Shown: one piece after another, positions 1,811 through 25,087 of the stretch
How positions within the stretch are numbered: position 1 is the stretch's first letter
How the letters are laid out: each line of letters begins with the position of its first letter
NCBI RefSeq assembly: GCF_000008645.1
Contig: NC_000916.1
Span: forward strand, 210,001 to 242,000
Direction of reading: 5' to 3'
Origin: Methanothermobacter thermautotrophicus str. Delta H
GTDB lineage: Archaea > Methanobacteriota > Methanobacteria > Methanobacteriales > Methanothermobacteraceae
Length of the DNA: 32,000 bases
Notes under the pieces: model-generated
Seen by the model: only the letters and a program-made list of their open reading frames with translations
What the model was told of the DNA's origin: nothing
Database searches by the model: none
Made by a program: the position numbers and the translations under genes

Positions 1811-2026
1811 TCACCCCCTTTATAATTAATAGTAACATTCTCTATTTCCTATTATTTAATATCTGCAGTTTTCGTCTCACAGGAGATCTCAGGATCTTAA
1901 AAAGTAGGATTCATGAAAACTGGTCCTCATGGGTATGGGGGTATGGAACTGATCAGTTTATCAGCCAGCGAAGATGATACCAGCAGCTCATGTTCCTCTC
2001 ATTAAATGAAGAAAATTAGAATTTTA

Positions 2027-3220: not shown

Positions 3221-3378
3221 CTCTCAAGGGCCCTGACCGGGCACACCTGTATGCATATGTTGCATTCCCTGCACTCATCCTCTCTGAATTTGAGGGATGT
3301 CTCCCTAACCTCTATGAGGTTCCGTGGGCATACACCTGCACATTCCCCACAGAACATACACCATTCCTTAACCTTCAT
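3217..3378 (-). CDS. 2x[4Fe-4S] ferredoxin (53 aa), not in the supplied ORF track
   Basis: My own minus-strand translation gives MKVKEWCMFCGECAGVCPRNLIEVRETSLKFREDECRECNICIQVCPVRALER. It contains two CxxCxxCxxxCP motifs. It sits directly upstream of, and is coupled to, the geranylgeranyl reductase, which is a common archaeal pairing. Confidence 0.8.
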   Translation of the reverse strand: MKVKEWCMFCGECAGVCPRNLIEVRETSLKFREDECRECNICIQVCPVRALER

Positions 3379-3490
3379 GGTTATCAACCTAAAATCAATT
3401 CTTCAGATCATGAATCTTTTATCATGGGGTTGCTTATACTTTGGGGTTAACCCTTTATAGTTCCTAATCTTTCACTGGAGGAGTATTTAT

Positions 3491-3600
3491 ATGTTTATAT
3501 GTTATGGCTCTGTTTGCGGGAACTGCCTCATCCTATGTTTATATGTTATGGCTCTGTTTGCGGGAACTGCCTCATCCTATGTTTATATGTTATGGCTCTG
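3491..3600. repeat. perfect 44-bp tandem repeat, 2.5 copies
   Basis: The unit atgtttatatgttatggctctgtttgcgggaactgcctcatcct occurs at 3491-3534 and 3535-3578, with a 22-bp partial copy at 3579-3600. Each unit carries a TTTATAT motif. Confidence 0.95.
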
Positions 3601-3709
3601 ATTCGGGACCGGCATCAGCTACTGCCTTGATAGGAGATGGGAGCACTCAGGTCAACCTCGCGAAAATTATAAATCCAGTCACTGACAATAATTATTAGGG
3701 AGGTTAATT

Positions 3710-4210
3710 ATGAAGAAGATTTTATTTCTGGTTCTTGTGGCCGCAACGGTGCTTGTATAGGGTTGTGTGAGTGAGGAACCCCAGTATAAGAGTTTCTCTG
3801 AGGGAACACTGAACTTCACCTATCCTGCGGCATGGGAGACATTTAACCCTGAGAATGCCCAGAGTGCCTTCACAAAGGAACCCGGAATTTCAAAGGATGT
3901 TATAGTCTATGTGGGTAACAGCAGTCATGATTTTGCCGCTGCAAAGGTCACGGCACGATCAGGTTACTACCTCAAGGACGTCGAGACAGTAAAAAATCAG
4001 ATGGCTAAAAATGAGGGTGTTACATCTGCAGAGATACGCAGTATAGCGGGGCGTAACGCTGCAGTGGTAACAGCCACGGACTCAACAACGCGCACCACCT
4101 TCGTTTACCTGAAGCTCAGCAGGACCAGTGGCTATGCCTTCATGTATGAGGGCCCACTATCTGATACTGCAACCCTTGAGGCCATACTCAGCAGTGTCAG
4201 GATAACATAA
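3710..4210 (+). pseudogene. putative secreted lipoprotein interrupted by an in-frame TAG in the lipobox (or N-terminally truncated product starting at GTG 3767)
   Basis: A GGGAGGT SD at 3698-3704 is followed by ATG 3710, encoding MKKILFLVLVAATVLV-TAG(3758-3760)-GCVSEEPQYKS... in the same frame as track ORF 3767..4210. This is a classic signal peptide plus a lipobox Cys. Confidence 0.6.
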
Positions 4211-4220
4211 ACCCTCTCTT

Positions 4221-6290: not shown

Positions 6291-6619
6291 TGATCAACCT
6301 CCGTAAGGTCTTCAAGGGACCTGTTTATTGATCTGAAGAGTTCAAGCCACTTTTTTCTGACTCTCTTCCCGTAATCTGTCACAGTATAGTATTTCCTTGG
6401 TCGTGTGTCGTCCGTGCTCCACCTGCTGCTGAGGATTCCCTCCCCTTCAAGTCTTCTAAGGAGGGGGTATAGGGTTCCTTCCTCGACGCGAAATCCGGAT
6501 TCTTTGAGTTTTTTAACAATTTCGTATCCGTATCTCTCATTTTCAAGTAGACAGATCACTTCAAGCTGTATTGCGCCGCGCCTCAGCTCCCTTTCAAATC
6601 TTTCACAGACACTGCTCAT
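6287..6619 (-). CDS. PadR-family winged-helix transcriptional regulator
   Basis: The sequence ...YGYEIVKKLKESGFRVEEGTLYPLLRRLEGEGILSSRWSTDDTRPRKYYTVTDYGK matches the PadR signature. The likely start is ATG 6619 (MSSVCERF), preceded by GTGAGGGAT; the track start at 6661 would lie inside the promoter. The stop overlaps the fsr-like ATG as ATGA (6287-6290). Confidence 0.9.
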   Translation of the reverse strand: MSSVCERFERELRRGAIQLEVICLLENERYGYEIVKKLKESGFRVEEGTLYPLLRRLEGEGILSSRWSTDDTRPRKYYTVTDYGKRVRKKWLELFRSINRSLEDLTEVDQ

Positions 6620-6642
6620 TGGATGATCCCTCACATGATATG

Positions 6643-6690
6643 GCACATATATGTGCTGCACACAGTACCTTGTACCACACAGTATATAAA
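6643..6690 (-). promoter_or_regulatory. PadR-operon promoter: TATA-like box (6683-6690) plus a perfect 14-bp palindrome gcacatatatgtgc (6643-6656)
   Basis: Read on the minus strand, TTTATATA is followed ~25-30 nt later by the palindrome, about 25 nt upstream of ATG 6619. That geometry fits an autoregulatory operator over the transcription start. Confidence 0.45.
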
Positions 6691-6700
6691 CCTTGTCACG

Positions 6701-6860
6701 CAGGGAGTGCCTTCACCAGAAACAGGGATCTCAAAGGATGCTTAAAGTAATATGAAGCTTCTGCAGAGATCACCGCACCATCAGCTTATTACCGCAGGGA
6801 CTTTGAGACCCTAAAGAATCAGATGGCCAGGAAGGAGGGCGTTACATCTGCAGATGCTAG
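6701..6860 (+). pseudogene. decayed remnant of a paralogue of the 3710..4210 lipoprotein gene
   Basis: There is clear nucleotide and peptide similarity to 3859-4035, for example ...PETGISKDA vs ...KEPGISKDV and ETLKNQMARKEGVTSAD vs ETVKNQMAKNEGVTSAE. The remnant has a stop, a frame change and no N-terminus. Confidence 0.6.
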
Positions 6861-6920: not shown

Positions 6921-7847
6921 TCAGATCCCATTTTTTATTCCTCCAAAGTTCTGGAGGATTTCAATTTCTTCTTCAGATAGTTCAGGGACACCCTTTATGA
7001 TCACAGGTATTTCGCTGATTGGCTTTGCCCTTGTCACATCATTTTGGAGTTTCTGATATACAGCATCTATGGCCCAGCCATAGTTAAGGTCATCTGCTTC
7101 GGTGATCCAGAGGGTGTCGATGTCTGCGTTTCTCGCATTTTTTGTTTTCTCATCCCACATGCTGATGAATAACCTGTCTTCCTGTCTCCATGAGTATTCA
7201 GCATCACCGATTATACCCACAACCTCCTTTACACCATCCTCAAGGAACTTTGAGTGACCGCAGACGCGGCAGACCACGAACTGGCCCTCCCGGGTGTGGA
7301 TTTTCTTTGGTCTGAAGAGGTCCCTCCCGCATATCAGTGTCCCGTAATTATCCTTCAGGGGCCTCTGAGCCTTCTTCAGTTTCTCAATGGCCTTCCTGGT
7401 AGCTACCCTGACAGTTTCATGGGGGTCGTTGAGGGCTTCCCTCAGTGCATCAAGGACCACGGCGTCCCCTGTCTCTCCAAGGTAATCTGCGGCCCTGGCC
7501 CTCACCTCTGGATCAGAGGAGTCCCTGAGGTATCCAGTGATCTTTTTAATTACATCCCCGTATTCAGGGCTCTCAGGGTCAAGTCCGTCCCTCAAGCCAT
7601 TCAGGGCGATCATATCACCATTTATGGGCGGCACTGTTTTGGCGGAAGCATGGGTTCCGGGATGCTCCTGCTGATCAGGGGAGCCTGAAATACCTACCAA
7701 GAACAATAAGAGAACAATGATGGCTATCAGGGCCAGATAACCCCACACACCTATCCATGATATTATTAGATAGGATACAAAAAGGATTACAATCAGAAAT
7801 AGACAGCCAGCGCAGGTATCCTCTCCTTCCATAGACACCACCCTCAA
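6921..7847 (-). CDS. membrane-anchored HEAT-repeat protein with Zn-ribbon-like CxxC pair and unknown C-terminal domain
   Basis: 308 aa with two N-terminal TM helices. HEAT/PBS-lyase-type repeats are present (DPEVRARAADYLGETGDAVVLDALREALNDPHETVRVATRKAIEKL). These are followed by ICGRD...VCRVCGH. An alternative start is ATG 7832. Confidence 0.7.
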   Translation of the reverse strand: MRVVSMEGEDTCAGCLFLIVILFVSYLIISWIGVWGYLALIAIIVLLLFLVGISGSPDQQEHPGTHASAKTVPPINGDMIALNGLRDGLDPESPEYGDVIKKITGYLRDSSDPEVRARAADYLGETGDAVVLDALREALNDPHETVRVATRKAIEKLKKAQRPLKDNYGTLICGRDLFRPKKIHTREGQFVVCRVCGHSKFLEDGVKEVVGIIGDAEYSWRQEDRLFISMWDEKTKNARNADIDTLWITEADDLNYGWAIDAVYQKLQNDVTRAKPISEIPVIIKGVPELSEEEIEILQNFGGIKNGI

Positions 7848-7858
7848 CTTTTACAGTG

Positions 7859-7917
7859 TGATGATTAGATTAAATTTCATTCATCTAATAAAGTTAACTA
7901 ATCATCATTTTATAAAT
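7859..7917 (+). promoter_or_regulatory. putative promoter of the 7955-15622 cluster: 10-bp inverted repeat (7859-7868 / 7898-7907) abutting TATA box TTTATAAATA (7908-7917)
   Basis: tgatgattag and ctaatcatca are exact reverse complements separated by 29 nt. A nested ttagat/atctaa pair lies at 7865-7870 and 7883-7888. The TATA-like box is ~38 nt upstream of GTG 7955 and ~65 nt upstream of ATG 7982. Confidence 0.4.
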
Positions 7918-7954
7918 AAAGTTAAAAACAATTAAAGTATAATCATACCATAAT

Positions 7955-8908
7955 GTGGTTCAGTTAATTTATGGTGATTCTATGAGTGGACTTAAATTCT
8001 CGCCGGTTGAGTTTGAAAGGGAGATTCAGGCAAGGGAGATGGCATTATCGGGTATAGCCAGTTCAAGGACCAGGATTGAGGGTCTGAAGTCGGAGATACT
8101 GAGAAACCTGGATGAAATTCCTGATGGGGCATGGAAGAGGTCTCCTGAAATTGCGGGGGTGAAATCCTGGATTAATGGGGCCACGGATGTATATATCGAC
8201 AGCACGATGAACAGCAACGAACTCCAGAAAATTGAGAGTGACCTCAAACGTACTGAGAAGATGGCCAGGGAACTGCTGGGGACCGTGGTCGATATAAAGG
8301 TTAAGGCCAGAAGGGAAAGGAGGGTCATGTTAAAACTTGAGAGTATCAATGCAGGATTTAATTGGAAAAAGGACCTTCTTGAGAAGTGGAAGTCTTCGGA
8401 TTCAGAGAGGTTCAGGGAGAAGATTGAGAGGGCCATGGAGGCCGTGAAAAGGGGGGACTTCAGCGGGGCCGAAACCAGGATTCCAGGTCTTGAAGATGAA
8501 CTGAGAGACCTCATCGAGGAAGCCGAGAAACTCGAATCAAACGACAGGATGCGCAGGCATGTTCTCTCTTCCGTTAAAGAGGTCGCTGAAAGGATGGGCT
8601 GGAAGGAAGTTTCAGAACCATACCTTGAGGATGATAAGGACCCATCCAGCCCCCTCATATATGAGCTGAAATCATATTCCGCGGGAAAGATGCGCTTTTC
8701 ACTTACCATGGACAGAATAGATGTTGAATCACCATTTTCAGCTGAAGATGGAGCCTGTTATGAACAGTTCGACAGATTCTCAGAGAAACTCCAGGAATAT
8801 GGTATCCGGACAAAATTCGAAGGGAACCAGGGAGGACCCAGGAATAAACCAGTCTTAAAGGAGAAGAAAGCAAAGAGGCTTCCAGAAAGTCGCATGAGAA
8901 GGATATGA
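7955..8908 (+). CDS. coiled-coil protein, unknown function (cluster gene 1)
   Basis: 317 aa, rich in charged and heptad-like helical sequence, with a small C-terminal mixed domain. An alternative start is ATG 7982, preceded by GGTGAT. I recognised no catalytic motif. Confidence 0.7.
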   Translation: MVQLIYGDSMSGLKFSPVEFEREIQAREMALSGIASSRTRIEGLKSEILRNLDEIPDGAWKRSPEIAGVKSWINGATDVYIDSTMNSNELQKIESDLKRTEKMARELLGTVVDIKVKARRERRVMLKLESINAGFNWKKDLLEKWKSSDSERFREKIERAMEAVKRGDFSGAETRIPGLEDELRDLIEEAEKLESNDRMRRHVLSSVKEVAERMGWKEVSEPYLEDDKDPSSPLIYELKSYSAGKMRFSLTMDRIDVESPFSAEDGACYEQFDRFSEKLQEYGIRTKFEGNQGGPRNKPVLKEKKAKRLPESRMRRI

Positions 8909-8923
8909 TGGAGATGTTGATCC

Positions 8924-10774
8924 ATGGCAGTATGGCAGGATAACCTTAAAAGACTGCTGAATCAGAAAGAGGTACTCATAATCCACGGAAACATAAGGGA
9001 CACCGCATACCTCACCGAGGAAGGAAACCTCGTCAGGGGCCTCACAGACCTTATCAACAGGACCGGCAGGGAACTTGGATACGATAAGACAGTGAGCTGG
9101 GGTTCATTCTTTGACCATGAAGGGAGGGGCCACTCCCCCATGTGGTCACTTGAAAGGATCACACCACTCAATGGGGACCAGCCAGAGATAAGGGAAACCG
9201 AAAGCCAGGACAGAGTCAGTGACGTACTCCACAGATGGCTGGAGGACGAAATAACCTCCATTGATGAGAAAAAGATCTTTATTATAAATTACATCGACAA
9301 GATCACAGGCTACGCTCCAGATGGAATGTACTCTGAACCCACAGCAGAACTTGTGACGCTCATACAGAAGATAATAGAGAACATATCTGAAAACAACCGC
9401 CTCATAATGATCGCCCTCAGGGACACGATGATCCCGGTTGAGTACTATACGAACTCGCCCCGTGTAGCAGTGATGGAGATACCCCTCCCTGACAGAGCAG
9501 AGAGACACCTTTACTATTCCACAACACTGGCCTCAGCAAGCATCCCATCCGATCAGATAGACTTACTCTCCAACATCACAGAGGGCCTCTACATGAAGGA
9601 CCTCGAAAACATCCTCAGCGACGTCCTGGAAGAAATTGATGAGAACCAGGAAGTCTCCTCTTCAATGCTGAGAAAAATAGTTAACAGGTACCGTATAGGT
9701 ACCGAAGAGGATCCATGGAGCAGGATACCACTCACAGGGCCTCCAAAGGGGCTTCTGGACTCGGCAGAGAACTGGTTTCTGGAGAGGGTTGTCGGACAGG
9801 ATCATGCGGTCAGGGAGATAGTGAATGCAATAAAGAAGGCACGTTCAGGTGTCGTGGGCCTTTCATCGGGGGGACAGTCAAAACCAAAGGCAACGTTCTT
9901 CTTCGCAGGGCCTACAGGTGTTGGTAAAACATTCCTGGCCAAAAAACTGGCAGAGTACCTGTTTGATACGGAGGAAGCATTTTTAAGGTTTGACATGAGT
10001 GAATTCAAGGAAGAGCACACAGTATCAAAGCTCATAGGTTCTCCTCCAGGTTATGTTGGATATGAACAGGGAGGACAGCTCACCAACGCCATAAAGAACA
10101 GACCATTCTCGGTCATCCTCTTTGATGAGATCGAAAAGGCTCACCCCAAGATAATGGATATATTCCTTCAGATCCTTGATGATGGACGCCTCACAGACAG
10201 CAGGGGACAGACGGTCTTCTTCACAGAGAGCGTGATAATATTCACATCCAACATCGGGACCAGAACCGTGGACAGCAGGGGAAACACCACATCTGAACAG
10301 AGGAAACTTGATGAAATAATAAATGACAGCGATCTCTCTGACTCTGAAAGGGAGAGAAGGGTGAGGGAACACTTCACGCGCAGTGTTAGAGAGTTCTTCA
10401 TGCATGAGATATCAAGAAGAGAACTTCTTAACAGGATAGGCTCACATATAATAGCCTTCAACTACCTGAAAAAATCAGATTACCAGGTGAACATAATTGA
10501 AAACAAACTCAAGGACATTTCAGAGAACTTCCGCGACAAATTCGCAGGCAGGGGGCACCGGCTCCACCTCTCCGGGGAATTAACTGGATATTTCCTTGAG
10601 AAGTATGGAGATTCAATATCAGAGTTCGGGGGCAGAGGTCTTGTAAATGCCCTTGAAGATGAAATAGGGAACATAGTGGCTGACCAGCTGCTCCTTGCAG
10701 AGGAGAGGGGAATGTCAGATATAAATTTCGAAGTATATGTTGATGGGGATGTAATCAGATGCCGGAGATCATGA
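8924..10774 (+). CDS. tandem AAA+ ATPase: degenerate N-terminal AAA-like half + ClpA/ClpB D2-type active half with ClpB_D2-small-like C-terminus (cluster gene 2)
   Basis: Walker A GPTGVGKT is at 9908-9931 and Walker B VILFDEIEKA at ~10115-10141. Clp-D2 hallmarks are present: LRFDMSEFKEEHTVSKLIGSPPGYVGYEQGGQLT and DGRLTDSRGQTV..IIFTSN. The N-terminal half has HGNIRDT where a P-loop would sit, so there is no GK[ST]. Confidence 0.85.
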   Translation: MAVWQDNLKRLLNQKEVLIIHGNIRDTAYLTEEGNLVRGLTDLINRTGRELGYDKTVSWGSFFDHEGRGHSPMWSLERITPLNGDQPEIRETESQDRVSDVLHRWLEDEITSIDEKKIFIINYIDKITGYAPDGMYSEPTAELVTLIQKIIENISENNRLIMIALRDTMIPVEYYTNSPRVAVMEIPLPDRAERHLYYSTTLASASIPSDQIDLLSNITEGLYMKDLENILSDVLEEIDENQEVSSSMLRKIVNRYRIGTEEDPWSRIPLTGPPKGLLDSAENWFLERVVGQDHAVREIVNAIKKARSGVVGLSSGGQSKPKATFFFAGPTGVGKTFLAKKLAEYLFDTEEAFLRFDMSEFKEEHTVSKLIGSPPGYVGYEQGGQLTNAIKNRPFSVILFDEIEKAHPKIMDIFLQILDDGRLTDSRGQTVFFTESVIIFTSNIGTRTVDSRGNTTSEQRKLDEIINDSDLSDSERERRVREHFTRSVREFFMHEISRRELLNRIGSHIIAFNYLKKSDYQVNIIENKLKDISENFRDKFAGRGHRLHLSGELTGYFLEKYGDSISEFGGRGLVNALEDEIGNIVADQLLLAEERGMSDINFEVYVDGDVIRCRRS

Positions 10775-11826
10775 ACCTTTACTGTGAGGTGAACCTGACA
10801 ACGCCCCTGGTCCTTGTGCTTGAGCCATCACCGGTCCTCTGGGAGGATATAATGAAGGTTTCAGCTGAAGTTATCGATTCCTTCCCGGGGAGGGTTAACA
10901 GGGTCTACTTCCCTGGCCAGAGGGAACACGAAGCCATCAGAACCTCCGGGGACCTCCGGAGAGATGGTCCGCGATGTCTCAGCAGGGGCAGGAACAGACC
11001 CCTTCTAATAAACCCGGTCCTTGAGAAACTCAATGAGGAAAAATTCACAGGTATCATAATCCTTGTTTCATCACGGGTCCCCATTGATATTGAGGACTGG
11101 GAGGGTACGGATGTCCCTGAGAGGCTGGTCTTCATCAACATGGGTGATGGGGACATTGAAGGCCCCTACAGGGTTATCGGCAGATCAAACATCAACCTCC
11201 AGATAGCTCCCCTCCTAAACAATGAGCCTACCGAGGTTTTTGTTTCCGGTGATGGCTTTGTCCCGTTGCGTTACAGTGTTGAGCCATTCAGATCATCAGA
11301 GATAGTGTTCAGGGATGGGGACTTCCTCCTGAATATTGAACCATCATCTGAGCCTTTAAAAATCCACCTTGCAGCAATCTGTAAGGACAGAGTTCCAGAA
11401 CTCAATATAAGACGTCAGAGGGGGTCACTGACAGAGAGGGTAGGTTTTAAGGAGGAAAGGCCCTGGTTTGATCAGAAATGGAATAAGATCCCTGATGATC
11501 TGAGGGACATCATCAGATCCGCCACAGAGAAAAGGGACTTCAAATGCCCCAGCTGCGGTGAAAAACACGCCTTTGATACCATGACATGCCCCTCCGGGGA
11601 CCTGATTTTAAGGGGACTGCCCGCAGGCAGATGCATCCTCTTCAGGGGAGATGAATACATTTCACTGGCAGATGCCCATGCATATCCCCTGGAGGATGGG
11701 AAGATAATAACCGCGGAGGGTAAGATTTACCGTCTGAAGGATGATGGTGGATGGGAGTACCTGAAGGACGTGGAACCATACGAGAGGGTTGATGATGATC
11801 TATTCGCATTATTCTATAGTATTTGA
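10759..11826 (+). CDS. degenerate vWA-like domain protein with C-terminal Zn-ribbon (cluster gene 3)
   Basis: ATG 10771 overlaps the upstream stop as ATGA (10771-10774). The strand pattern LVLVLEPSPV...GRNRPLLINPVLEKL...GIIILVSSRVPID resembles a vWA fold with the MIDAS DxSxS replaced by EPSPV. A CPSCGEKHAFDTMTCPSGD Zn-ribbon follows. The domain call is by eye only. Confidence 0.6.
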   Translation: MPEIMNLYCEVNLTTPLVLVLEPSPVLWEDIMKVSAEVIDSFPGRVNRVYFPGQREHEAIRTSGDLRRDGPRCLSRGRNRPLLINPVLEKLNEEKFTGIIILVSSRVPIDIEDWEGTDVPERLVFINMGDGDIEGPYRVIGRSNINLQIAPLLNNEPTEVFVSGDGFVPLRYSVEPFRSSEIVFRDGDFLLNIEPSSEPLKIHLAAICKDRVPELNIRRQRGSLTERVGFKEERPWFDQKWNKIPDDLRDIIRSATEKRDFKCPSCGEKHAFDTMTCPSGDLILRGLPAGRCILFRGDEYISLADAHAYPLEDGKIITAEGKIYRLKDDGGWEYLKDVEPYERVDDDLFALFYSI

Positions 11827-12390
11827 TCGAACAGGATTTCCATTGATCCAGCTGGACAGCTGGGATCATTCCATCGGCCTGTTCCCTGTCAGCAAGTACC
11901 AGTTTGAACGTTTCCTTGTGGATGATGAGGGCTCTGACTACACCGATGAGTGGTACAGGGGGGTCCTGGAATTGAATCCCCGCAGGAGCTGAGGAACCCG
12001 GGTGATAGGGTATGGGAGTTATTCATCACGGGTCTGGATCTTGATGTTATTGAGGACTTCCTCGGCTACCTCGGACCTGAATACAGACTGCCCACCCTGG
12101 ATGAATGGAAGGCCCTTCTTGAACTATCTGAGGGTATAGCTGAAGTATCCCCTGCTCTTAAAATGATCTGCAATGGTAGATCCCCGGAGCCGGTTCTTCA
12201 CTGGCTGGAAGCCGGTCTCTGTCCCCTTATGAGGGAGGGAATTTTTGAGAGGATCCATGGAATTGAGAATAGGGTCGCTGGAAAACCCTTTCACAGTCTT
12301 CTCCCAAATACATGGGCCCCAGAAGAACTCAAGGAGGTTAAAATGGACATGGTTCAGGGCATGATTGGATTCAGGGTTGTAAGGGGATGA
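11789..12390 (+). pseudogene. minimal FGE-sulfatase (SUMF1/'FGS')-like domain protein, split by one frame break (cluster gene 4)
   Basis: Two collinear ORFs, 11789..11992 in frame 2 and 11950..12390 in frame 1. Together they carry PVSKYQFERFL, YRLPTLDEWKALLE (compare RLPTEAEWE) and the terminal IGFRVVRG, all typical FGE-sulfatase landmarks. The break lies between 11950 and 11992, near G6 (11958-11963) and C4 (11978-11981). Confidence 0.6.
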
Positions 12391-12510
12391 TGGTGGTGTG
12401 TCCGTGTGAATTCTGCAGTGGGTGCTGAATTATTTATGGGGGATGATGGTGTATCTCTACGTCCTGGTTTAGGAGGTACTGAATCTGTACTGGAATCATG
12501 GAGGTATATT

Positions 12511-13119
12511 ATGGGTAAACTGAGGGTTGGCAGGTTTCTTATATCCTCAAGGGTTAATGGTCCTGGAAGAAGGTTTGTCATATGGTTTCAGGGGTGTCCC
12601 ATCCGCTGCAGGGGGTGTCTGAATCCGGAGTTCCATGATGAGGATGGCGGCCATCTCATTGAAACTGCCCGGCTGGTTGATATGATCAGGGATCTCAGGG
12701 ATGAAATAGAGGGGGTGACCTTCACCGGTGGCGAACCCCTCGCCCAGGCCATGGAGCTGGTGAAGCTTGCCGGGGCTGTTAAGTCGATGGGCCTCACAGT
12801 GGTATGCTTCACAGGATATGAAATGGATGAAATCCTTAAAGGGAACATAGAGGGCGGGCTCGAGCTCCTTGAATTTGTAGATGTGCTCATAGACGGCCCT
12901 TACATTGAGGAAAAGAGTGCGCCGTTGCTCTGGCGTGGAAGCACAAATCAGGATGTTTATTTTCTTACAGAACGCTATGCTGAATTCAGGGACAGGGTGA
13001 TGGCCTGTTCTGAAATGGAAGCTGAACTCAAAGTAGGTGCAGATGGTGTTTACATGACCGGAATCTTTGATGTTGAATTCTGGGAGGAACTCAGAAGGAG
13101 GCTGGGTGATGGATCTTAG
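12511..13119 (+). CDS. NrdG/PflA-type radical-SAM activating-enzyme homologue (cluster gene 5)
   Basis: VNGPGRRFVIWFQGCPIRCRGCLNPE contains the Cx3Cx2C cluster at 12595-12618. FTGGEPL, CFTGYEMDEIL and VDVLIDGPYIEEKSAPLLWRGSTNQ are collinear with class III RNR activase NrdG. The probable start is ATG 12511 after GGAGGT; the track ORF starts at 12406. Confidence 0.85.
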   Translation: MGKLRVGRFLISSRVNGPGRRFVIWFQGCPIRCRGCLNPEFHDEDGGHLIETARLVDMIRDLRDEIEGVTFTGGEPLAQAMELVKLAGAVKSMGLTVVCFTGYEMDEILKGNIEGGLELLEFVDVLIDGPYIEEKSAPLLWRGSTNQDVYFLTERYAEFRDRVMACSEMEAELKVGADGVYMTGIFDVEFWEELRRRLGDGS

Positions 13120-14122
13120 ATGTCCCTACTGCCTGAATGAGACCAGACCTGAACTCAAACCGGGGATCGGCTACTGCTGCAGGGAATGTCAGGAGGCACT
13201 CCCAAAGGATTATGTTGACCCCCTTAACTCAAGGGCCAGGATAGGTCTTGTCGGATTCACGGGTCACGGAAAGACGGTTTATCTTACAAGCCTCTTTTAT
13301 ACCCTGAGGGTCCTTTCAAACAGGGATATATGGAGGAACTTCTCATGGCGCACCTGTGATGACCACACCCATAAAATAAAATATTCAGATGTCAGGAAAT
13401 TTGAAAACTCAAGGCTTCCAGCGAGCACACCTGAAAATTTTCCCAGACCCGCCCTCATACATCTGCAGAATGTTCCATCCATGGGTGACATCTTCCTCAG
13501 CTTCTATGATACGGCGGGAAGGGTTTATGAAAGCGCCGAAAAGATAACCGATATGGGAAGATTCGTTGCCCATGCCGACACGGTGTTCTTTCTCATAAGC
13601 CTCAGTGAGAGCGGCCTTGGTGAGTGTGATATGGGTGATGTGAGTTTTGAAATGGAGCGTCTCCTTGATATATACATAAGGGGGGTCTATGAGAAGATGC
13701 ATGTTGACCTTTCAGATAAGCAGGAAATGGTTGTGCTTCTGACAAAGGCCGATGAGATTGACATCCTCCCTGAGGACCTCCATAAATTTTTAAACGAATC
13801 TTCATGTAACTGGTGGATGAATGATGACCTGGAGGCCAGATTCAGTGCCCTTGATAACTATTCTGAGAGGATAAGGGAATGGCTGAGAAGTGAGGGCTGT
13901 GGAGGATTTGTTAATCTGGCTGAAAACAATTTTAAAGGTGTTAAGTATACACTGATCTCATCAACAGGTGCCAGTCCAGTGGGGGATACCCTGGTCACGA
14001 AACTTGAACCGGAGCACCCAAAGGGGGTCATCAATCCACTCGTCTTTGCAATGAGGAGCGCATGCTCCCGTGAATCAGCACAGGGTGTCAGGAGTTTTAT
14101 TGGCAAAATCAGGAGGAGGTAG
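13109..14122 (+). CDS. Zn-ribbon + TRAFAC-class P-loop GTPase (cluster gene 6)
   Basis: The N-terminus CPYC...CCRECQ is a Zn-ribbon. G1 GFTGHGKT is at 13253-13276, G3 DTAG at 13508-13519 and G4 TKAD at 13742-13753. The probable start is ATG 13109, 8 nt after GGAGG, overlapping the radical-SAM stop; the track start is 13067. Confidence 0.8.
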   Translation: MDLRCPYCLNETRPELKPGIGYCCRECQEALPKDYVDPLNSRARIGLVGFTGHGKTVYLTSLFYTLRVLSNRDIWRNFSWRTCDDHTHKIKYSDVRKFENSRLPASTPENFPRPALIHLQNVPSMGDIFLSFYDTAGRVYESAEKITDMGRFVAHADTVFFLISLSESGLGECDMGDVSFEMERLLDIYIRGVYEKMHVDLSDKQEMVVLLTKADEIDILPEDLHKFLNESSCNWWMNDDLEARFSALDNYSERIREWLRSEGCGGFVNLAENNFKGVKYTLISSTGASPVGDTLVTKLEPEHPKGVINPLVFAMRSACSRESAQGVRSFIGKIRRR

Positions 14123-15622
14123 GTGTTCATGGAAATATACCAGTTTGTATACACCAAGGTGCCACCTGAAGAATCTCCATGGAATATAAGGGATTTTCAC
14201 ACAGTCTTCTATCCTGTGGATCTTATTTCAAGGGAAGACCTTTATGAAATGGAGAGAATGATACACAAGCCACAGATAGATGGCTTTAGAGATAAATTAA
14301 CGGTTTTTTACAGGAAGATAGATGATATGGATTATCTTGCAATCCTTTACCTCACTGACCTTCCTGAGGAGAGGGATGTCTTTGGGAGGGGAGGCCTCTT
14401 CCTGTGCCATGGATTTTTATTCCCGCCTGAAATCTGGATGATGGCTCAAACACCCCTTGAACTCTTTGATATCGTGAAAGGCCATGTATTTAATGGGATC
14501 GAAGACCTTTTAAACTCAGGAATCGTTGACAGGAATAGCGGTAACATTGAGGCTATAGAGATTTCAGGTTATTCTCCCCCCGGGGATATGCGCCCCCCAC
14601 TGTCCGATGACCTTAAACTGAAGATAACATCATACCTTTTTAAGATGGCTTCAGGGATCAGGGACTGCCCACCTCTGCTTTTAGCCGGTGAACCCTCTGA
14701 TGTATCAGAACTGCTGGATGAGGTTCTCTTCTACATCCCGGATGAACTGAAGGTCAACCTTGGATGGGATTCAGCCTTTGATGGAGGCAGCCTCTACCAT
14801 TATCCCCTTAAAATACTCGGATTCCAGGAGGAAATGCCCTATGGAGGGAACCCTGTTTCTGTTGACCTGTATAACCGAACAGTTGATTGCCCGGGCGAAT
14901 CAGCAGGGCTTTTACATCCCGTTTCAACCTATGAGAGATGGCTGGAGAACTGTGATGAAAGAGTTTCAAGGGAGGATATCAATGCAGCCTACCGGCTGTC
15001 GCTCCTGGTTGATTCCATGGAGCCACCCTCCTCAGTTGAGGAGGTAATGCCCCAGCTGGAAAACTTTTCTTACATCAACAGGGACCCCATTGAGGGGCAG
15101 TTCAGGAGAAAATTCCATGAAGTCTTTGGCATGACCCTCACTGATCCTGATTTACCTCCGGCGACCATGCTGAAGTTCCTCATTGAGGGCGCATCATGTG
15201 ATTCCATGGCGGGTTTCATTGAGTCACTGGTTCTTGATGGTTATCTCACTGAGGAGGACATAAAACTTCCAGGGGAGGTCACAGAGAGGAGCAGGATTCT
15301 GATGACCATTCAGAGGTTATGGGATGGTGCTGATATCACTGACGAAATCATGGAATCTGATTCTGAAGAACGCCGCCATATATTCGCATATCTAATCGGA
15401 ACCGGACTTTTGATGAAAAATGAATCACTTAAAGACTTATTGAGGGATAATGAGGATTTTAACGCTTTACTGGAGGAGAGGGAGGATCTTTTTGATATTT
15501 TAAATAACTCTGGATTCTCTGTATCTGGAAGTGAGTCCGCAGATGATCCTGAAGATGGATCTGACATCATAAATCTGAATAAAGTGAAGATGGTAATATC
15601 AGGGTTATTCAGGAGGCACTGA
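14123..15622 (+). CDS. large unknown protein, possible GTPase-associated (GAP1-like) partner (cluster gene 7)
   Basis: 499 aa, abutting the GTPase stop (14120-14122) with an AGGAGGAGG SD; an ATG is at 14129. The N-terminal YQFVYTKV... and ...RDVFGRGGLFLCHGFLFP resemble my recollection of GAP1-N-type domains, but that family assignment is unverified. The C-terminus is acidic and helical. Confidence 0.7.
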   Translation: MFMEIYQFVYTKVPPEESPWNIRDFHTVFYPVDLISREDLYEMERMIHKPQIDGFRDKLTVFYRKIDDMDYLAILYLTDLPEERDVFGRGGLFLCHGFLFPPEIWMMAQTPLELFDIVKGHVFNGIEDLLNSGIVDRNSGNIEAIEISGYSPPGDMRPPLSDDLKLKITSYLFKMASGIRDCPPLLLAGEPSDVSELLDEVLFYIPDELKVNLGWDSAFDGGSLYHYPLKILGFQEEMPYGGNPVSVDLYNRTVDCPGESAGLLHPVSTYERWLENCDERVSREDINAAYRLSLLVDSMEPPSSVEEVMPQLENFSYINRDPIEGQFRRKFHEVFGMTLTDPDLPPATMLKFLIEGASCDSMAGFIESLVLDGYLTEEDIKLPGEVTERSRILMTIQRLWDGADITDEIMESDSEERRHIFAYLIGTGLLMKNESLKDLLRDNEDFNALLEEREDLFDILNNSGFSVSGSESADDPEDGSDIINLNKVKMVISGLFRRH

Positions 15623-15688
15623 GTGTCTTCATAGTCTGAATGGACAATATAAGAAAAATAAAAAAGGGATATCAGCTCACCATCCATT

Positions 15689-16198
15689 TCAAGTGCAGAA
15701 CTTTCCTGATGGAGTTAACAGGTTACCACGGGCCGTGATACCAAAGAATACCACATCCTCAGGTCCGTAGCCCTCATCGAAGCTCCAGTCTGTTGTTTCA
15801 AAATAGGCCCTTTCACCTGGTCCCAGGGTGTTTATGAGGGATGACCCTCTGAATACCGGAGCCATTCCAATGGCTATGAGATCTCCATCACTGTTAAATC
15901 CCTTGACCCAGACATAATCGATATGCATGGCTGAGCTGTATCTGTTCTGGATCTCCCCTTTCACAACATAGTCTCCAGTGTAATCTGAGAAGACAGTGTA
16001 GTTGAGGACCTCTACCTGGGCTTTACTCTCGATGACCTCATCGACAGCTGACGACCCATTAATATGACCCAACACAAAACTGAGGAATCCCACTATTAGT
16101 AAGGATATTATGATCAGGGTTGCCTTTGTAAAGGTACTCCTTCTACTCCACCATCCACCTGATCTGCCAGTTTTTCCATCATCAACATCTGAAGACAT
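15689..16198 (-). CDS. N-terminally anchored membrane protein with FxLYD/DUF3426-like beta-sandwich ectodomain (paralogue A)
   Basis: 169 aa: MSSDVDDGKTGRSGGWWSRRS, a TM helix, then ...VEVLNYTVFSDYTGDYVVKGEIQNRYSSAMHIDYVWVKGFNSDGDLIA. The domain call is by eye. Confidence 0.6.
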   Translation of the reverse strand: MSSDVDDGKTGRSGGWWSRRSTFTKATLIIISLLIVGFLSFVLGHINGSSAVDEVIESKAQVEVLNYTVFSDYTGDYVVKGEIQNRYSSAMHIDYVWVKGFNSDGDLIAIGMAPVFRGSSLINTLGPGERAYFETTDWSFDEGYGPEDVVFFGITARGNLLTPSGKFCT

Positions 16199-16235: not shown

Positions 16236-16682
16236 CTAAAAAACGTGTGCTTGTGTTTGAAGTCCAACAGTAAGAATGTTGGGATGTTCCTCCCAGATGA
16301 TCCCTTCGATTCTGGTCTTCTTACCAGGGGGGAGTACATAATACCCAAAAGCCCACCCATGCAAACGATCTTCACTTGAGTTAAAACCTGTTATGCTGAT
16401 ATCATCAACAAACACGGTTTCTTCATAGTTGTTCTGAATCTCAAAGGTGATATTGTAAATACCGTCATGATCATGAGTTATGGTGTAATTTACGATATTC
16501 ACATGAAATCTTTCATCGTCCATTTCTGTGGCAGAGTCCACCCCCTCGCTGTAACCCAGTGAGTAGGTGATGCATACCCAGAGTATTATGCCGAGGATTA
16601 TGATACCCTTTCTGCTGTAACTGCTCCTTTTACTCCACCATCCACGTAATCTGCCAGTTTTTCCGTCATCATCTGAAGACAT
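16236..16682 (-). CDS. paralogue B of the 15689..16198 protein
   Basis: 148 aa: MSSDDDGKTGRLRGWWSKRS, a TM helix, then ...VNIVNYTITHDHDGIYNITFEIQNNYEETVFVDDISITGFNSSEDRL. The architecture and N-terminal motif match the neighbouring gene. Confidence 0.6.
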   Translation of the reverse strand: MSSDDDGKTGRLRGWWSKRSSYSRKGIIILGIILWVCITYSLGYSEGVDSATEMDDERFHVNIVNYTITHDHDGIYNITFEIQNNYEETVFVDDISITGFNSSEDRLHGWAFGYYVLPPGKKTRIEGIIWEEHPNILTVGLQTQAHVF

Positions 16683-20719: not shown

Positions 20720-21024
20720 CCAGAGCATCTGCCGCCAGGTGAATTATTAGTTACAGGGATAATCCTGGAGAAAGCTTCATTTCAATATTTTTATTAAATG
20801 GTGTACCGGACCACACGTTCGTAATAGAGAACTATTACGAAGTTCACCATCCCTCATTAGGCCTCCACCTTTAGGCTTCCCTGAGGCTTAAGCCGGAGGA
20901 CCCACCGTTAAACCTTTTCCAGATGAGGGTATACATTTATATTGTACAGTGTGCAGAATGACTGCATGGGATCATATAATGGTTCACTTCGGGGATCTGA
21001 TCCCTGAGCCAGGGGGGTTATATT

Positions 21025-21144
21025 ATGGTTTACTGTCGTGAATGCGGGGAGCTTAATCGTGATGGGGCAAACTACTGTCTTAAATGTGGCAGCCCCTCAG
21101 GGGGAGTGAAGGGGAGGATACCAGGCCTCAACCGGCCCGGATGA
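21025..21144 (+). CDS. 39-aa zinc-ribbon mini-protein, or the N-terminal Zn-ribbon of the next gene separated by a frame break
   Basis: My translation is MVYCRECGELNRDGANYCLKCGSPSGGVKGRIPGLNRPG, with CxxC-x12-CxxC. Its TGA (21142-21144) overlaps ATG 21141 of the next ORF as ATGA. Confidence 0.5.
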   Translation: MVYCRECGELNRDGANYCLKCGSPSGGVKGRIPGLNRPG

Positions 21145-22343: not shown

Positions 22344-22372
22344 CCAAAAAATAACTCAGAGGAGAGAATAAC

Positions 22373-25007: not shown

Positions 25008-25087
25008 ACTGATCTCTGATTCTGAAGCAGACCATTTAAGAGCCATCAGAGGAAATTCCTTAAAAAATACATACCAGCATCTAAAGA

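What the first reader, a model, noticed from the sequence alone, without database searches (positions are those of the whole stretch)
7955..15622. Seven-gene coupled cluster (coiled-coil / Clp-type AAA+ / vWA-like-ZnR / FGE-like / NrdG-type radical SAM / ZnR-GTPase / 499-aa partner): candidate uncharacterised NTP-dependent conflict system
Seen directly: seven same-strand ORFs joined by very small gaps or overlaps. The junctions are a 15-nt gap at 8908/8924, an ATGA overlap at 10771-10774, an overlap at 11789-11826, an overlap at 13109-13119 and an abutment at 14122/14123. Only one larger gap (12391-12510) exists, and only if the rSAM gene starts at ATG 12511. One AT-rich promoter region precedes the set, and convergent genes end it at 15623-15688. 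From established family knowledge, the cluster combines two NTPases of different classes (a ClpB-D2-like AAA+ and a TRAFAC GTPase with G1/G3/G4 motifs). It adds two Zn-ribbon proteins, a vWA-like fold with a degenerate MIDAS, an FGE-sulfatase-type putative ligand-binding domain and a radical-SAM enzyme. I know of no housekeeping pathway that joins these parts. AAA+/vWA pairs, FGE-sulfatase ('FGS') sensor domains and GTPase-plus-partner modules are recurring building blocks of computationally predicted prokaryotic conflict systems (Aravind-lab comparative genomics). I know of no experimentally characterised defence system with this composition. The functional reading is inference.
Basis: partly seen in the sequence, partly recalled or inferred. 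Interest (0 to 1): 0.85.

Follow-up and report, generated by a model that had tools for sequence, protein, structure and literature searches.

The report
Eight-gene GTPase, unfoldase, radical-SAM cluster
This is a real, tightly conserved eight-gene system in Methanothermobacter and several bacterial phyla that joins a GTPase switch with a DENN-like partner, a ClpB-type unfoldase with a vWA/lectin-like pair and a radical-SAM activase; its function is untested and it looks like a new variant of the computationally predicted "GTPase-centric conflict systems".

Summary

Three corrections apply.
- The FGE-like gene is broken by a fixed 1-nt deletion at 11990/11991.
- The conserved unit has eight genes. 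The divergent gene 6921-7847(-) belongs to it; it encodes TM helices, HEAT repeats, a Zn ribbon and a conserved C-domain.
- The GTPase and the 499-aa partner are not orphans. They are a divergent DO-GTPase2/GAP1 pair (Kaur et al. 2020, eLife).

All eight families recur together in at least seven bacterial lineages. Module order is shuffled, and GTPase::GAP1 fusions occur. The same block is kept in three Methanothermobacter-type lineages, and all genes are under purifying selection.

The GAP1-like partner models confidently, and its best PDB matches are C9orf72, DENND10 and FNIP2 (longin-DENN regulators).

The theme of rSAM plus ClpB-like AAA+, vWA and FGS is not described in the source paper. 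PADLOC recognises only the AAA+.

A conflict or immune role remains an inference. Flanking genes are ordinary, and no plasmid or phage copies were found.

Verdict: new variant of a known, still uncharacterised kind. It is testable in M. thermautotrophicus Delta H.

The parts
6921..7847 (-). It carries 2 N-terminal TM helices, a short HEAT_2 array, a Zn ribbon and a conserved ~140-aa C-domain with motifs K-x-V-[VI]-G-[LI]-I-G and ARNADID.
   Evidence: Pfam HEAT_2 1.2e-9. Hydrophobic segments at about residues 13-33 and 35-56. Homologues of the C-domain occur in 1-2 copies in nearly all related loci, usually directly upstream of the rSAM gene.
7848..7981 (.). AT-rich divergent intergenic region (21.6% GC) between the HEAT gene and g1. 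It contains TTTATAAATA at about 7909-7918 and is the presumed divergent archaeal promoter region.
   Evidence: Sequence; GC content. Promoter function is inferred and was not tested.
7982..8908 (+). g1: coiled-coil protein with a conserved MSG[LV]K[YF]S N-terminus and a C-terminal alpha/beta domain. It is 308 aa from ATG 7982; the ORF opens at GTG 7955.
   Evidence: ORF. Homologues in 13 related loci start at MSG.K. Only weak coiled-coil-type Pfam/NCBIfam hits. The Delta H name 'protein kinase' is unsupported.
8924..10774 (+). g2: 616-aa AAA+ protein. The N-terminal ~240 aa are unassigned. The rest is a ClpB/Hsp104 NBD2-type unfoldase module with intact Walker A/B, a GYVGY pore loop, sensor and Arg motifs.
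   Evidence: Pfam AAA_2 5.1e-54. NCBIfam ClpB 2.9e-80, far below the equivalog cut-off. PADLOC PDC-M37B 3.7e-32 and DolB 1.3e-21. PDB ClpB D2 4e-63. 62-66% identity to bacterial orthologues.
10759..11826 (+). g3: vWA domain with a degenerate MIDAS (E-P-S), then a beta-sandwich, a Zn ribbon (CPxC...H...CP) and a C-terminal beta domain.
   Evidence: No Pfam hit. AF2 pLDDT 90.6, pTM 0.80. Foldseek PDB: integrin beta3 1e-6, ArnB paralogue vWA2 5a8j 4e-6, Sec23/24, ITIH1. Alignment invariants.
11795..11992 (+). g4, N-terminal fragment of the FGE-sulfatase-like (FGS/C-type-lectin-fold) gene. It is terminated by a frameshift-induced TGA.
   Evidence: The exact 65-aa product is on 61 contigs.
11950..12390 (+). 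g4, C-terminal fragment in the other frame. A 1-nt deletion lies between 11990 and 11991. The intact gene is 198-204 aa in relatives.
   Evidence: DNA alignment to L009 and L001. 9/9 intact homologues hit Pfam FGE-sulfatase. NCBI names the intact form 'formylglycine-generating enzyme family protein'.
12383..12451 (.). Lineage-specific 56-nt insertion bounded by direct repeats GGGGATGATGGTG, in the g4-rSAM spacer.
12511..13119 (+). g5: 202-aa NrdG/PflA-type radical-SAM activase. It has a CX3CX2C motif, a GGE SAM motif and a ~50-aa C-terminal extension.
   Evidence: Pfam Fer4_12 9e-35. NCBIfam NrdG 2.5e-33 (115 bits vs cut-off 126). PDB PFL-activase 5e-8. The 202-aa form is the one seen in relatives.
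13109..14122 (+). g6: Zn-ribbon TRAFAC GTPase of the DO-GTPase2 family. Motifs: G1 GxxGHGKT, G3 DTxG, G4 TKxD, G5 SSTG.
   Evidence: Pfam DO-GTPase2 1.3e-5 for the window protein (25.5 bits, GA 27). 15/15 family members hit, best 3.9e-8.
14129..15622 (+). g7: divergent GAP1 (GTPase-associated protein 1). It has a longin-like N domain, an alpha/beta middle domain and a helical C domain. Conserved SP and FGRGG..CHGF motifs.
   Evidence: No Pfam hit by itself. A profile search finds 300 representatives, and the distant ones hit GAP1-N2/GAP1-M. hhalign vs the GAP1-N2 set: prob 100%, E=6.5e-48, 456 columns. AF2 pLDDT 91. Foldseek top hits C9orf72, DENND10, FNIP2.

Best explanation
The locus is one functional unit of eight genes: a new 'theme' of the GTPase-centric (DO-GTPase/GAP1) NTP-dependent systems. 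Aravind's group predicted this class to be biological-conflict or stress systems.

Shown here:
- A Zn-ribbon DO-GTPase2 and a GAP1 protein form the constant core. The GAP1 model has a longin + DENN-like + helical architecture. The two are fused in some bacteria.
- An NrdG-type radical-SAM activase is translationally coupled upstream of the GTPase.
- A protein with variable TM/HEAT repeats and a constant Zn-ribbon C-domain usually sits directly upstream of the activase.
- A second NTPase module always travels as a triad: a ClpB-NBD2-type unfoldase, then a vWA-sandwich-Zn-ribbon protein, then an FGS lectin-fold protein.
- A coiled-coil protein completes the set.

Inferred mechanism:
1. The variable, membrane-anchored HEAT protein and the vWA/FGS proteins bind a trigger or target. 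This would be an invader-derived or stress-derived protein or ligand near the membrane.
2. GAP1 acts on the GTPase as a DENN/folliculin-type regulator and sets a GTP-dependent threshold. The near-invariant Arg in the FGRGG loop is a candidate arginine finger.
3. The active switch then licenses two outputs. One is radical chemistry by the activase, on a protein glycine or another substrate. The other is ATP-driven threading or unfolding of vWA-bound polypeptide by the Hsp100-like ring, scaffolded by the coiled-coil protein.

In Delta H the FGS gene is frameshifted, so this copy runs without an intact FGS or is partly disabled.
For: Co-occurrence:
- All eight families occur in bacterial contigs L007, L012, L015, L016, L018, L025 and L036. 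Module order is permuted, but the internal order AAA+ -> vWA -> FGS and rSAM -> GTPase -> GAP1 is constant.
- The GTPase is adjacent to, or fused with, GAP1 in about 21 of 23 informative lineages. rSAM is present in about 16 of 19. These are hand tallies.
- GTPase::GAP1 fusions are P0013 and P0033.

Conservation in archaea:
- The same eight-gene block is kept in three archaeal lineages while the flanks rearrange.
- dN/dS is 0.08-0.30 for all eight genes.

Family links:
- DO-GTPase2 hits in 15/15 homologues.
- GAP1 link at E=6.5e-48.
- The class description is in PMC7159879.

Folds.

Variable accessory parts, as expected for the class:
- Kinase-TPR-WD40 replaces rSAM in L033.
- A DUF4062-STAND-TPR protein is a neighbour in L024.
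- An S-layer domain is fused to the GTPase in L018.
- An IS element lies next to L004.

Other support:
- The HEAT and coiled-coil genes are the most divergent. Their synonymous divergence (dS 1.0-1.3) is also higher than for the other genes (0.3-0.6), which suggests cassette replacement.
- ClpB-like ATPases occur in known or candidate defence systems: PADLOC DolB and PDC-M37B.
Against: - No component other than the AAA+ matches any PADLOC model.
- There are no copies on plasmids or phages.
- Flanking genes in archaea and bacteria are ordinary: Fsr/PadR, GGR, histidine kinases, UvrA, CstA, peptidase M1.
- In Methanothermobacter the block looks vertically conserved, not strain-variable.
- The conflict role of the whole DO-GTPase/GAP1 class is itself only a computational prediction (PMC7159879).
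- The radical-SAM substrate is unknown.
- The DENN-like similarity rests on Foldseek hits with low TM-scores (0.19-0.34) and no sequence-level support.
Confidence: 0.45

Rival explanations
1. The eight genes form a cellular (non-immune) machine. It would be a GTPase-gated, membrane-proximal protein-remodelling or envelope/proteostasis stress system. An Hsp100-like unfoldase and a radical-SAM enzyme would act on host proteins. This is analogous to chaperone or assembly systems built on AAA+/vWA pairs.
For: - Vertical conservation and purifying selection in Methanothermobacter.
- Ordinary flanking genes and no defence-island context.
- AAA+/vWA pairs are classically assembly chaperones (PMC7159879, section on MoxR-vWA).
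- DO-GTPases have been suggested to act in membrane stress (PMC11237479).
- TM and HEAT components are present.
Against: - The distribution across phyla is patchy and includes one archaeal genus, with 62-66% AAA+ identity across domains. This indicates horizontal transfer.
- No conserved client gene lies next to the block.
- Accessory parts are variable: kinase-WD40, STAND-TPR.
- The HEAT/coiled-coil pair appears to be swapped as a cassette.
- The FGS gene is tolerated as a pseudogene in Delta H.
Confidence: 0.3
2. It is a maturation system for a metallo- or radical enzyme. The combination of radical SAM, GTPase and an AAA+/vWA chaperone would parallel HydE/G/F or CoxD/E-type systems.
For: The part list resembles cofactor-maturation kits, and most hosts are anaerobes: Methanothermobacter, Thermodesulfobacteriota, Desulfococcaceae. 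This is a resemblance from general knowledge only.
Against: - No target enzyme is linked in any of about 25 lineages.
- The GTPase is of the DO-GTPase family with a GAP1 partner, not a SIMIBI metallochaperone.
- The activase is NrdG/PflA-type, not a cofactor-building rSAM.
- In L033 the rSAM is replaced by a kinase-WD40 protein.
Confidence: 0.07
3. The locus is two or three unrelated operons that merely lie side by side: rSAM-GTPase-GAP1, AAA+-vWA-FGS and HEAT/coiled coil.
For: - Some contigs show only the GTPase-GAP1(-rSAM) part: L008, L021, L024, L033.
- There is one orphan GAP1 (L006).
- A 120-nt gap separates the two halves in the window.
Against: - The modules co-occur in at least 7 bacterial and 3 archaeal lineages in different relative orders, with overlapping or abutting genes.
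- In L001 the g4-rSAM gap is only 12 nt.
- Most 'partial' loci are truncated contigs.
Confidence: 0.08

Closest known systems
GAP1-N2-type GTPase-centric (DO-GTPase/GAP1) systems, Kaur, Burroughs, Iyer & Aravind, eLife 2020 (PMC7159879)
   Same: - The GTPase is a Zn-ribbon TRAFAC GTPase of the DO-GTPase2 family.
- GAP1 is encoded immediately downstream, or fused.
- Homology to GAP1-N2 proteins runs along the full length.
- TM-containing and repeat-containing variable components are present.
- vWA and FGS domains occur as accessory parts.
- A chaperone-type ATPase is present, parallel to the HSP70/GrpE/DnaJ theme.
   Different: - The window proteins fall below Pfam thresholds and form their own subfamily of about 75 close 50%-identity representatives.
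- There is a single GTPase.
- The accessory set is an NrdG-type radical SAM, a ClpB-NBD2 AAA+, a vWA-sandwich-ZnR protein, a stand-alone FGS, a coiled-coil protein and a HEAT/TM-ZnR-C-domain protein. None of the three themes in that paper (tubulin, HSP70, kinase/PP2C) has this set.
- It occurs in a methanogen and in thermophilic or anaerobic bacteria, rather than in actinobacteria, firmicutes or planctomycetes.
MoxR-vWA ternary conflict systems with FGS effectors (same paper)
   Same: An AAA+ ATPase gene is followed by a vWA protein and an FGS (FGE-sulfatase/C-type-lectin fold) domain. The MIDAS is degenerate, as in some of those vWA components.
   Different: - The ATPase is a ClpB/Hsp104 NBD2-type threading unfoldase, not MoxR.
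- FGS is a separate 198-aa protein.
- There is no VMAP or iSTAND third component.
- No diversity-generating retroelement or TR/VR repeat was found.
Dodola (DolA/DolB) and PADLOC candidate PDC-M37
   Same: The AAA+ D2 module matches DolB (1.3e-21) and PDC-M37B (3.7e-32).
   Different: None of the partner proteins of those systems is present. The match covers only the generic ClpB-like ATPase domain.
Glycyl-radical enzyme/activase pairs (NrdD-NrdG, PflB-PflA)
   Same: - The activase is NrdG/PflA-type.
- A gene encoding a Zn ribbon, followed about 15 residues later by an invariant Gly in [KR]-x-V-x-G-x-[LI]-G, usually lies directly upstream. This recalls the NrdD C-terminus (CxxC-x16-RRVCGYLG) and the nrdD-nrdG gene order.
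   Different: - No glycyl-radical barrel is present.
- The motif similarity (hhalign P=0.004) is no better than Zn-knuckle-only controls (P=0.002).
Eukaryotic longin-DENN GTPase regulators (C9orf72-SMCR8, DENND10, FLCN-FNIP)
   Same: - The predicted GAP1-like structure has a beta-beta-alpha-beta-beta-beta-alpha-alpha longin-type N domain, an alpha/beta middle domain and an all-helical C domain.
- The three best PDB Foldseek hits are DENN-family proteins.
- Like them, it partners a P-loop GTPase.
   Different: - There is no sequence-level similarity.
- TM-scores are low.
- The partner GTPase is not Ras-like.
- Whether it has GEF or GAP activity is unknown.

Membership tests
DO-GTPase/GAP1 GTPase-centric system (PMC7159879) | TRAFAC GTPase of the DO-GTPase family, commonly with N-terminal Zn ribbon(s) | tested here: met
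   PF19993 DO-GTPase2 hit in 15/15 family members (best 3.9e-8). The window protein scores 25.5 bits, just under GA 27. The CPYC...CxxC ribbon and G1/G3/G4/G5 motifs are conserved.
DO-GTPase/GAP1 GTPase-centric system (PMC7159879) | GAP1 protein (N, M and C domains) encoded directly downstream of, or fused to, the GTPase | tested here: met
   Adjacent in about 21 of 23 informative lineages (hand tally). Fused in P0013/L007 and P0033. hhalign against a set in which 27/29 members hit GAP1-N2: prob 100%, E=6.5e-48, 456 columns. The window protein alone has no Pfam hit at E<=1.
DO-GTPase/GAP1 GTPase-centric system (PMC7159879) | Conserved glutamate in the Walker B motif of the GTPase | tested here: inconclusive
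   Walker B reads hhhYDTxG with an invariant Asp. A Glu follows the Gly in only about half of the sequences, and a Y/F-E lies 3-4 residues later. I could not map the paper's feature precisely.
DO-GTPase/GAP1 GTPase-centric system (PMC7159879) | Variable effector or sensor components and a mobile neighbourhood | tested here: met
   HEAT arrays range from 2 to about 20 repeats, or are replaced by TM regions. Kinase-WD40, STAND-TPR and S-layer-domain variants exist. Module order is shuffled and the flanks differ in every locus. Within Methanothermobacter, however, the block is stable.
Experimentally defined anti-phage defence systems (PADLOC-DB v2) | All required proteins of a listed system are present | tested here: not met
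   Only the AAA+ hits, with DolB, PDC-M37B and weak IetA/mad8 matches. rSAM has only marginal pVip hits (1.6e-4). g1, g3, g4, g6 and g7 have none.
MoxR-vWA ternary systems | MoxR-clade AAA+ paired with a vWA protein | tested here: not met
   The ATPase is the ClpB/ClpA/Hsp104 NBD2 type. The vWA fold itself is confirmed.
Glycyl-radical enzyme + activase | NrdG/PflA-family radical-SAM activase with CX3CX2C | tested here: met
   Fer4_12 9e-35. TIGR02491 NrdG 115 bits, against a cut-off of 126, so not an equivalog. PFL-AE is the best PDB match.
Glycyl-radical enzyme + activase | Substrate protein with a glycyl-radical motif (RVxG[FWY]) in a GRE fold | tested here: inconclusive
   The partner's C-terminal 'ISGL' is not conserved. 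The ZnR C-domain aligns its invariant Gly to NrdD's radical Gly (P=0.0039), but ZnR-only controls score the same (P=0.0017-0.0019).
Longin-DENN module | Tripartite longin / DENN (alpha-beta) / d-DENN (helical) fold | tested here: inconclusive
FGE-sulfatase (FGS) domain | Match to PF03781, with the catalytic Cys pair if enzymatic | tested here: met
   9/9 intact homologues hit PF03781, all below the gathering score (best 5e-6; member 1 14.2 bits vs 23.3). No invariant Cys is present, so the domain is probably a non-catalytic binding domain. The window copy is frameshifted.

The most novel reading that the evidence does not exclude
The system is a radical-based switchable device. GAP1 is a true prokaryotic homologue of the eukaryotic longin-DENN regulators and gates a DO-GTPase. 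The NrdG-type activase installs a glycyl radical on the invariant Gly of the Zn-ribbon C-domain, an NrdD-C-terminus-like module fused to variable HEAT/TM sensors. This would create a new class of glycyl-radical protein used as an immune or suicide effector. It would also point to a prokaryotic conflict-system origin for DENN/folliculin-type GTPase regulators.
Probability: 0.1. Interest if true: 0.9.

Novelty: new variant of a known kind. Interest (0 to 1): 0.62.

Why it matters
- No DO-GTPase/GAP1 system has been characterised experimentally.
- This variant sits in M. thermautotrophicus Delta H, a model methanogen. It has compact intact bacterial versions, for example the 9.3-kb eight-gene L012, that could be expressed heterologously.
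- It couples two different NTPase 'threshold' modules to a radical-SAM activase. I found no description of this combination in the searchable literature.
- The predicted longin-DENN-like architecture of GAP1 would, if confirmed, give DENN/folliculin/C9orf72-type regulators a prokaryotic relative outside Asgard archaea. It would also suggest how the GTPase is controlled.
- The NrdG-type enzyme is annotated in genomes as an anaerobic ribonucleotide reductase activase. That annotation is very likely wrong for this gene.

Tried and rejected
1. Partner as a glycyl-radical protein via its C-terminal 'VISGLF': rejected, because that Gly is not conserved.
2. 'Cluster absent from Delta H / strain-variable', which I inferred from the genome-contig scan finding only two bacterial loci: wrong. 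The exact look-up shows the window is Delta H or a near-identical strain (AAB84789-95), and the scan was a false negative.
3. Frameshift as a sequencing error: rejected, because both halves are exact on 61-67 contigs.
4. Plasmid or phage carriage: no tblastn hits.
5. A diversity-generating retroelement acting on the FGS gene: no TR/VR-like repeat in the window. Rfam gave no hits.
6. Sequence-level links: GAP1 to solved structures found none. The ZnR C-domain to PDB or Pfam found none.
7. NrdD-like glycyl-radical motif in the C-domain: hhalign aligned the expected Gly, but Zn-ribbon controls scored equally, so I keep it only as a lead.
9. Literature searches by MTH gene names found nothing.
10. 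Defence-island context in bacterial loci: the flanks are ordinary genes.

Full report
**1. What is in the sequence**

The window is Methanothermobacter thermautotrophicus Delta H or a near-identical strain. Exact protein look-ups return AAB84789.1-AAB84795.1 on a 1.75-Mb record.

- a 15-nt gap at 8909-8923;
- an ATGA overlap at 10771-10774;
- a g3/g4 overlap ending at 11826;
- an rSAM/GTPase overlap at 13109-13119;
- the partner gene ending at 15622, before a 66-nt convergent spacer.

The upstream intergenic region 7848-7981 is 21.6% GC, against 47.7% for the cluster.

Homologues refine three starts:
- g1 starts at ATG 7982 (MSGLK...).
- rSAM starts at ATG 12511 (202 aa).
- The partner starts at ATG 14129.

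The FGE-like gene is split into two frames (11795-11992 and 11950-12390) by a 1-nt deletion between 11990 and 11991. This is seen against a 97-99% identical relative (L009) and against a more distant lineage (L001). Both fragments occur as exact sequences on 61-67 independent contigs, so the frameshift is fixed in the Delta H lineage. Intact 198-204-aa versions exist in M. defluvii and other lineages.

The g4-rSAM spacer also carries a lineage-specific 56-nt insertion bounded by GGGGATGATGGTG repeats.

**2. Domain calls**

*g2 (AAA+).* It is a ClpB/Hsp104 NBD2-type AAA+.
- Pfam AAA_2 5e-54; PDB ClpB D2 about 1e-63.
- Read directly from the sequence, it has intact Walker A/B, a GYVGY pore loop and sensor motifs.
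- Its first ~240 residues match nothing.

*g3 (vWA).* It has no Pfam hit, but a 13-sequence alignment gives an AF2 model with pLDDT 90.6.
- The best PDB matches are integrin beta3 (1e-6), the Sulfolobus ArnB paralogue vWA2 (4e-6), Sec23/24 and ITIH1.
- This indicates a vWA domain plus beta-sandwich, followed by a Zn ribbon and a small beta domain.

*g4 (FGE-like).* All nine intact homologues hit Pfam FGE-sulfatase below threshold (best 5e-6). No invariant Cys is present, so it is probably a non-catalytic FGS binding domain.

*g5 (radical SAM).* It is an NrdG/PflA-type activase.
- Fer4_12 9e-35.
- TIGR02491 115 bits against a cut-off of 126.
- PFL-AE is the best solved relative.

*g6 (GTPase).* It is a Zn-ribbon TRAFAC GTPase. 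All 15 family members tested hit Pfam DO-GTPase2 (best 3.9e-8; the window protein scores 25.5 bits against GA 27).

*g7 (partner).* The window protein itself hits nothing in Pfam.
- An exhaustive profile search finds 300 50%-identity representatives.
- The distant ones carry Pfam GAP1-N2 and GAP1-M.
- A profile-profile comparison to that set gives probability 100%, E=6.5e-48 over 456 columns.

The GTPase and its partner are therefore a divergent DO-GTPase2/GAP1 pair. This is the core of the 'GTPase-centric systems' described computationally by Kaur et al. 2020 (PMC7159879).

**3. The unit has eight genes**

tblastn of the window proteins against 45 related loci was used to map the components. 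The loci came from the look-up of encoding contigs, a genome scan and a metagenome scan. The divergent upstream gene 6921-7847(-) also has homologues in nearly every related locus.

That protein has four parts:
- two TM helices;
- a short HEAT array;
- a Zn ribbon;
- a conserved ~140-aa C-domain with an invariant Gly in K-x-V-[VI]-G-[LI]-I-G and an ARNADID motif.

In bacteria the N-terminal part varies, from TM regions to about 20 HEAT repeats. There are often two paralogues, and the gene usually overlaps the start of the rSAM gene.

Complete bacterial versions:
- L012: rSAM, TM/C-domain, GTPase, GAP1, coiled coil, AAA+, vWA, FGS.
- L015/L016: AAA+, vWA, FGS, HEAT/C-domain, rSAM, GTPase, GAP1, coiled coil, TM/C-domain.
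- L018, L025, L036 and L007 show further permutations. In L007 the GTPase and GAP1 are fused into one 1102-aa protein.

Hand tallies over non-redundant lineages from the tblastn maps:
- The GTPase is next to, or fused with, GAP1 in about 21 of 23 informative cases.
- rSAM is present in about 16 of 19.
- AAA+ -> vWA -> FGS always travel together in that order.

Variants replace or add parts:
- A Ser/Thr kinase-TPR-WD40 protein replaces rSAM in L033.
- A DUF4062-STAND-TPR protein is a neighbour in L024.
- An S-layer domain is fused to the GTPase in L018.
- An IS element lies next to L004.

Named hosts are Methanothermobacter, Thermodesulfobacteriota, Desulfococcaceae, Candidatus Kryptonium, Candidatus Ratteibacteria and an unclassified vent bacterium.

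**4. Evolution in archaea**

Three archaeal lineages keep the same eight-gene block while the flanks are inverted or reshuffled. They are the Delta H-like lineage, the L001 lineage at about 85% nucleotide identity, and the L045 lineage at about 55% protein identity.

- dN/dS between the window and L001 is 0.08-0.30 for every gene. Two flanking control genes give 0.08 and 0.21.
- The HEAT and coiled-coil genes stand out with dS 1.0-1.3, against 0.3-0.6 for the rest.
- Their nucleotide identity is 68%, against 85% elsewhere. This suggests replacement of that divergent gene pair by a distant allele.
- Across domains the AAA+ is 62-66% identical, whereas the other components are 30-50% identical.

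I had first inferred from the genome scan that Delta H lacks the cluster. One search shows that was a false negative. In Methanothermobacter the block is conserved, not strain-variable.

**5. Structure of the GAP1-like partner**

A 60-sequence alignment gives an AF2 model with pLDDT 91 and pTM 0.86. The order of secondary-structure elements is:
- beta-beta-alpha-beta-beta-beta-alpha-alpha (residues 1-130), a longin-type pattern;
- an alpha/beta domain (145-300);
- an all-helical domain (309-462).

The three best Foldseek hits in the PDB are all longin-DENN GTPase regulators:

| Rank | Chain | Protein | E-value | Probability |
|---|---|---|---|---|
| 1 | 7mge_C | C9orf72 | 3.9e-4 | 0.97 |
| 2 | 8p0v_M | DENND10 | 4.4e-3 | 0.96 |
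| 3 | 6ulg_N | a chain of the FLCN-FNIP2 complex | 5.9e-2 | 0.28 |

The source paper does not mention longin or DENN for GAP1. Zhang et al. 2012 describe the DENN and d-DENN domains as known only within the DENN module, which they analyse in eukaryotes.

The near-invariant motifs are E-x-S-P before strand 2 and F-G-R-G-G before strand 5. They sit where GAP-type longins carry their GP motif and arginine finger according to PMC12290439. The mapping of the Arg is my inference.

**6. The radical-SAM enzyme**

It is catalytically complete and belongs to the glycyl-radical activase family, but no classical glycyl-radical enzyme is present.

One lead concerns the Zn-ribbon C-domain gene, which usually sits directly upstream, as nrdD does relative to nrdG.
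- Its pattern is CxxC-G-x13-[KR]-x-V-x-G-x-[LI]-G.
- This resembles the E. coli NrdD C-terminus, CPKCG-x10-RRVCGYLG.
- hhalign places the invariant Gly on the radical Gly (P=0.014 against one sequence; P=0.0039 against a seven-sequence NrdD profile).

Controls argue for caution. The GTPase Zn ribbon (P=0.0019) and the g3 Zn ribbon (P=0.0017) score equally well against the same NrdD profile. The similarity is therefore not distinguishable from a generic Zn knuckle. I keep it as a hypothesis only.

**7. Function**

Nothing here demonstrates a function. PADLOC recognises only the AAA+ (DolB, PDC-M37B). No plasmid or phage copies exist in the collections searched. Flanking genes are ordinary.

The case for a conflict-type role rests on:
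- membership of the DO-GTPase/GAP1 class;
- the two NTPase 'threshold' modules;
- variable repeat and TM sensors;
- accessory kinase-WD40 and STAND-TPR variants;
- horizontal, patchy distribution across phyla;
- cassette-like divergence of the HEAT/coiled-coil pair.

The main rival is a cellular membrane-proximal remodelling or stress machine. Its support comes from stable inheritance in Methanothermobacter and the absence of a defence-island context.

I commit to the GTPase-gated, two-output model in the best explanation at 0.45. That the eight genes form one functional unit I hold at about 0.9.

**8. Novelty**

The class is known, but only as a computational prediction and only in one paper in the searchable library. 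This accessory theme is not described there. The theme comprises an NrdG-type rSAM, a ClpB-type AAA+/vWA/FGS triad, a coiled-coil protein and a HEAT/TM-ZnR-C-domain protein. It is therefore a new variant of a known kind.

GenBank names in Delta H are misleading: 'protein kinase' for g1, 'Clp protease regulatory subunit' for g2 and 'anaerobic RNR activating protein' for g5.

Noticed in passing
window 22974-25007 (+), within 20848-25235: A stand-alone 677-aa ORF carries RNA polymerase Rpb1 domains 1-5 (RpoA'-like; Pfam E down to 2e-73). It lies in a segment with no counterpart at this position in the L001 lineage. It may be an extra or fragmentary RNAP large-subunit paralogue.
   Followed up: partly
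window 12383-12451: A 56-nt insertion bounded by two GGGGATGATGGTG copies lies in the spacer between the FGE-like gene and the rSAM gene. L009 lacks it, and L001 has only a 12-nt spacer. The junction seems to have been duplicated stepwise.
   Followed up: yes
window 6921-8527 vs L001 2619-4292: The divergent HEAT and coiled-coil gene pair is 68% identical in DNA between lineages, against about 85% for the rest. Its dS is 1.0-1.3, against 0.3-0.6. This looks like allele or cassette replacement rather than only faster protein evolution.
   Followed up: partly
window 3490-3621: A tandem 44-nt repeat (two exact copies plus a 61% copy) lies in an intergenic region near the geranylgeranyl-reductase/ferredoxin genes.
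   Followed up: no
window 3939-4032 and 6761-6854: A 94-nt direct repeat (81% identity) brackets the F420-dependent sulfite-reductase-like gene (4221-6290, with an N-terminal HAAS domain) and its PadR regulator (6287-6661). The second copy lies just beyond the 3' end of the HEAT gene, at a rearrangement breakpoint relative to L001.
   Followed up: partly
window 1999-4552 vs L001 1-2398; L045: The left flank is inverted relative to the L001 lineage. In L045 the eight-gene block sits in a different order relative to the two small membrane proteins and the HisKA_2 kinase. The block stays intact while its surroundings are reshuffled.
   Followed up: partly
window 15689-16198 (-) and 16236-16682 (-): Two paralogous small proteins (169 and 148 aa, each with a hydrophobic stretch near the N-terminus, 37% identical, no Pfam hit) lie directly downstream. 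They are linked to the block in all three archaeal lineages but not in bacteria.
   Followed up: no
L033 242-3358; L024 6777-11576; L018 4768-6744: Bacterial variants of the system carry three different accessory parts. One is a Ser/Thr kinase-TPR-WD40 protein in place of the rSAM. One is a neighbouring DUF4062-STAND(AAA_16)-TPR protein. One is a GTPase with an N-terminal S-layer-type domain.
   Followed up: partly
Genome-contig scan: The species-representative genome scan returned no Methanothermobacter locus, although Delta H encodes exact matches to both search patterns. Absence in that scan should not be read as absence of the gene.
   Followed up: yes
window 7955-8908: The Delta H GenBank annotation of g1 as 'protein kinase' (AAB84789.1) has no support from Pfam, NCBIfam or PADLOC. 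It probably stems from coiled-coil similarity; there is a weak DMPK_coil hit.
   Followed up: yes
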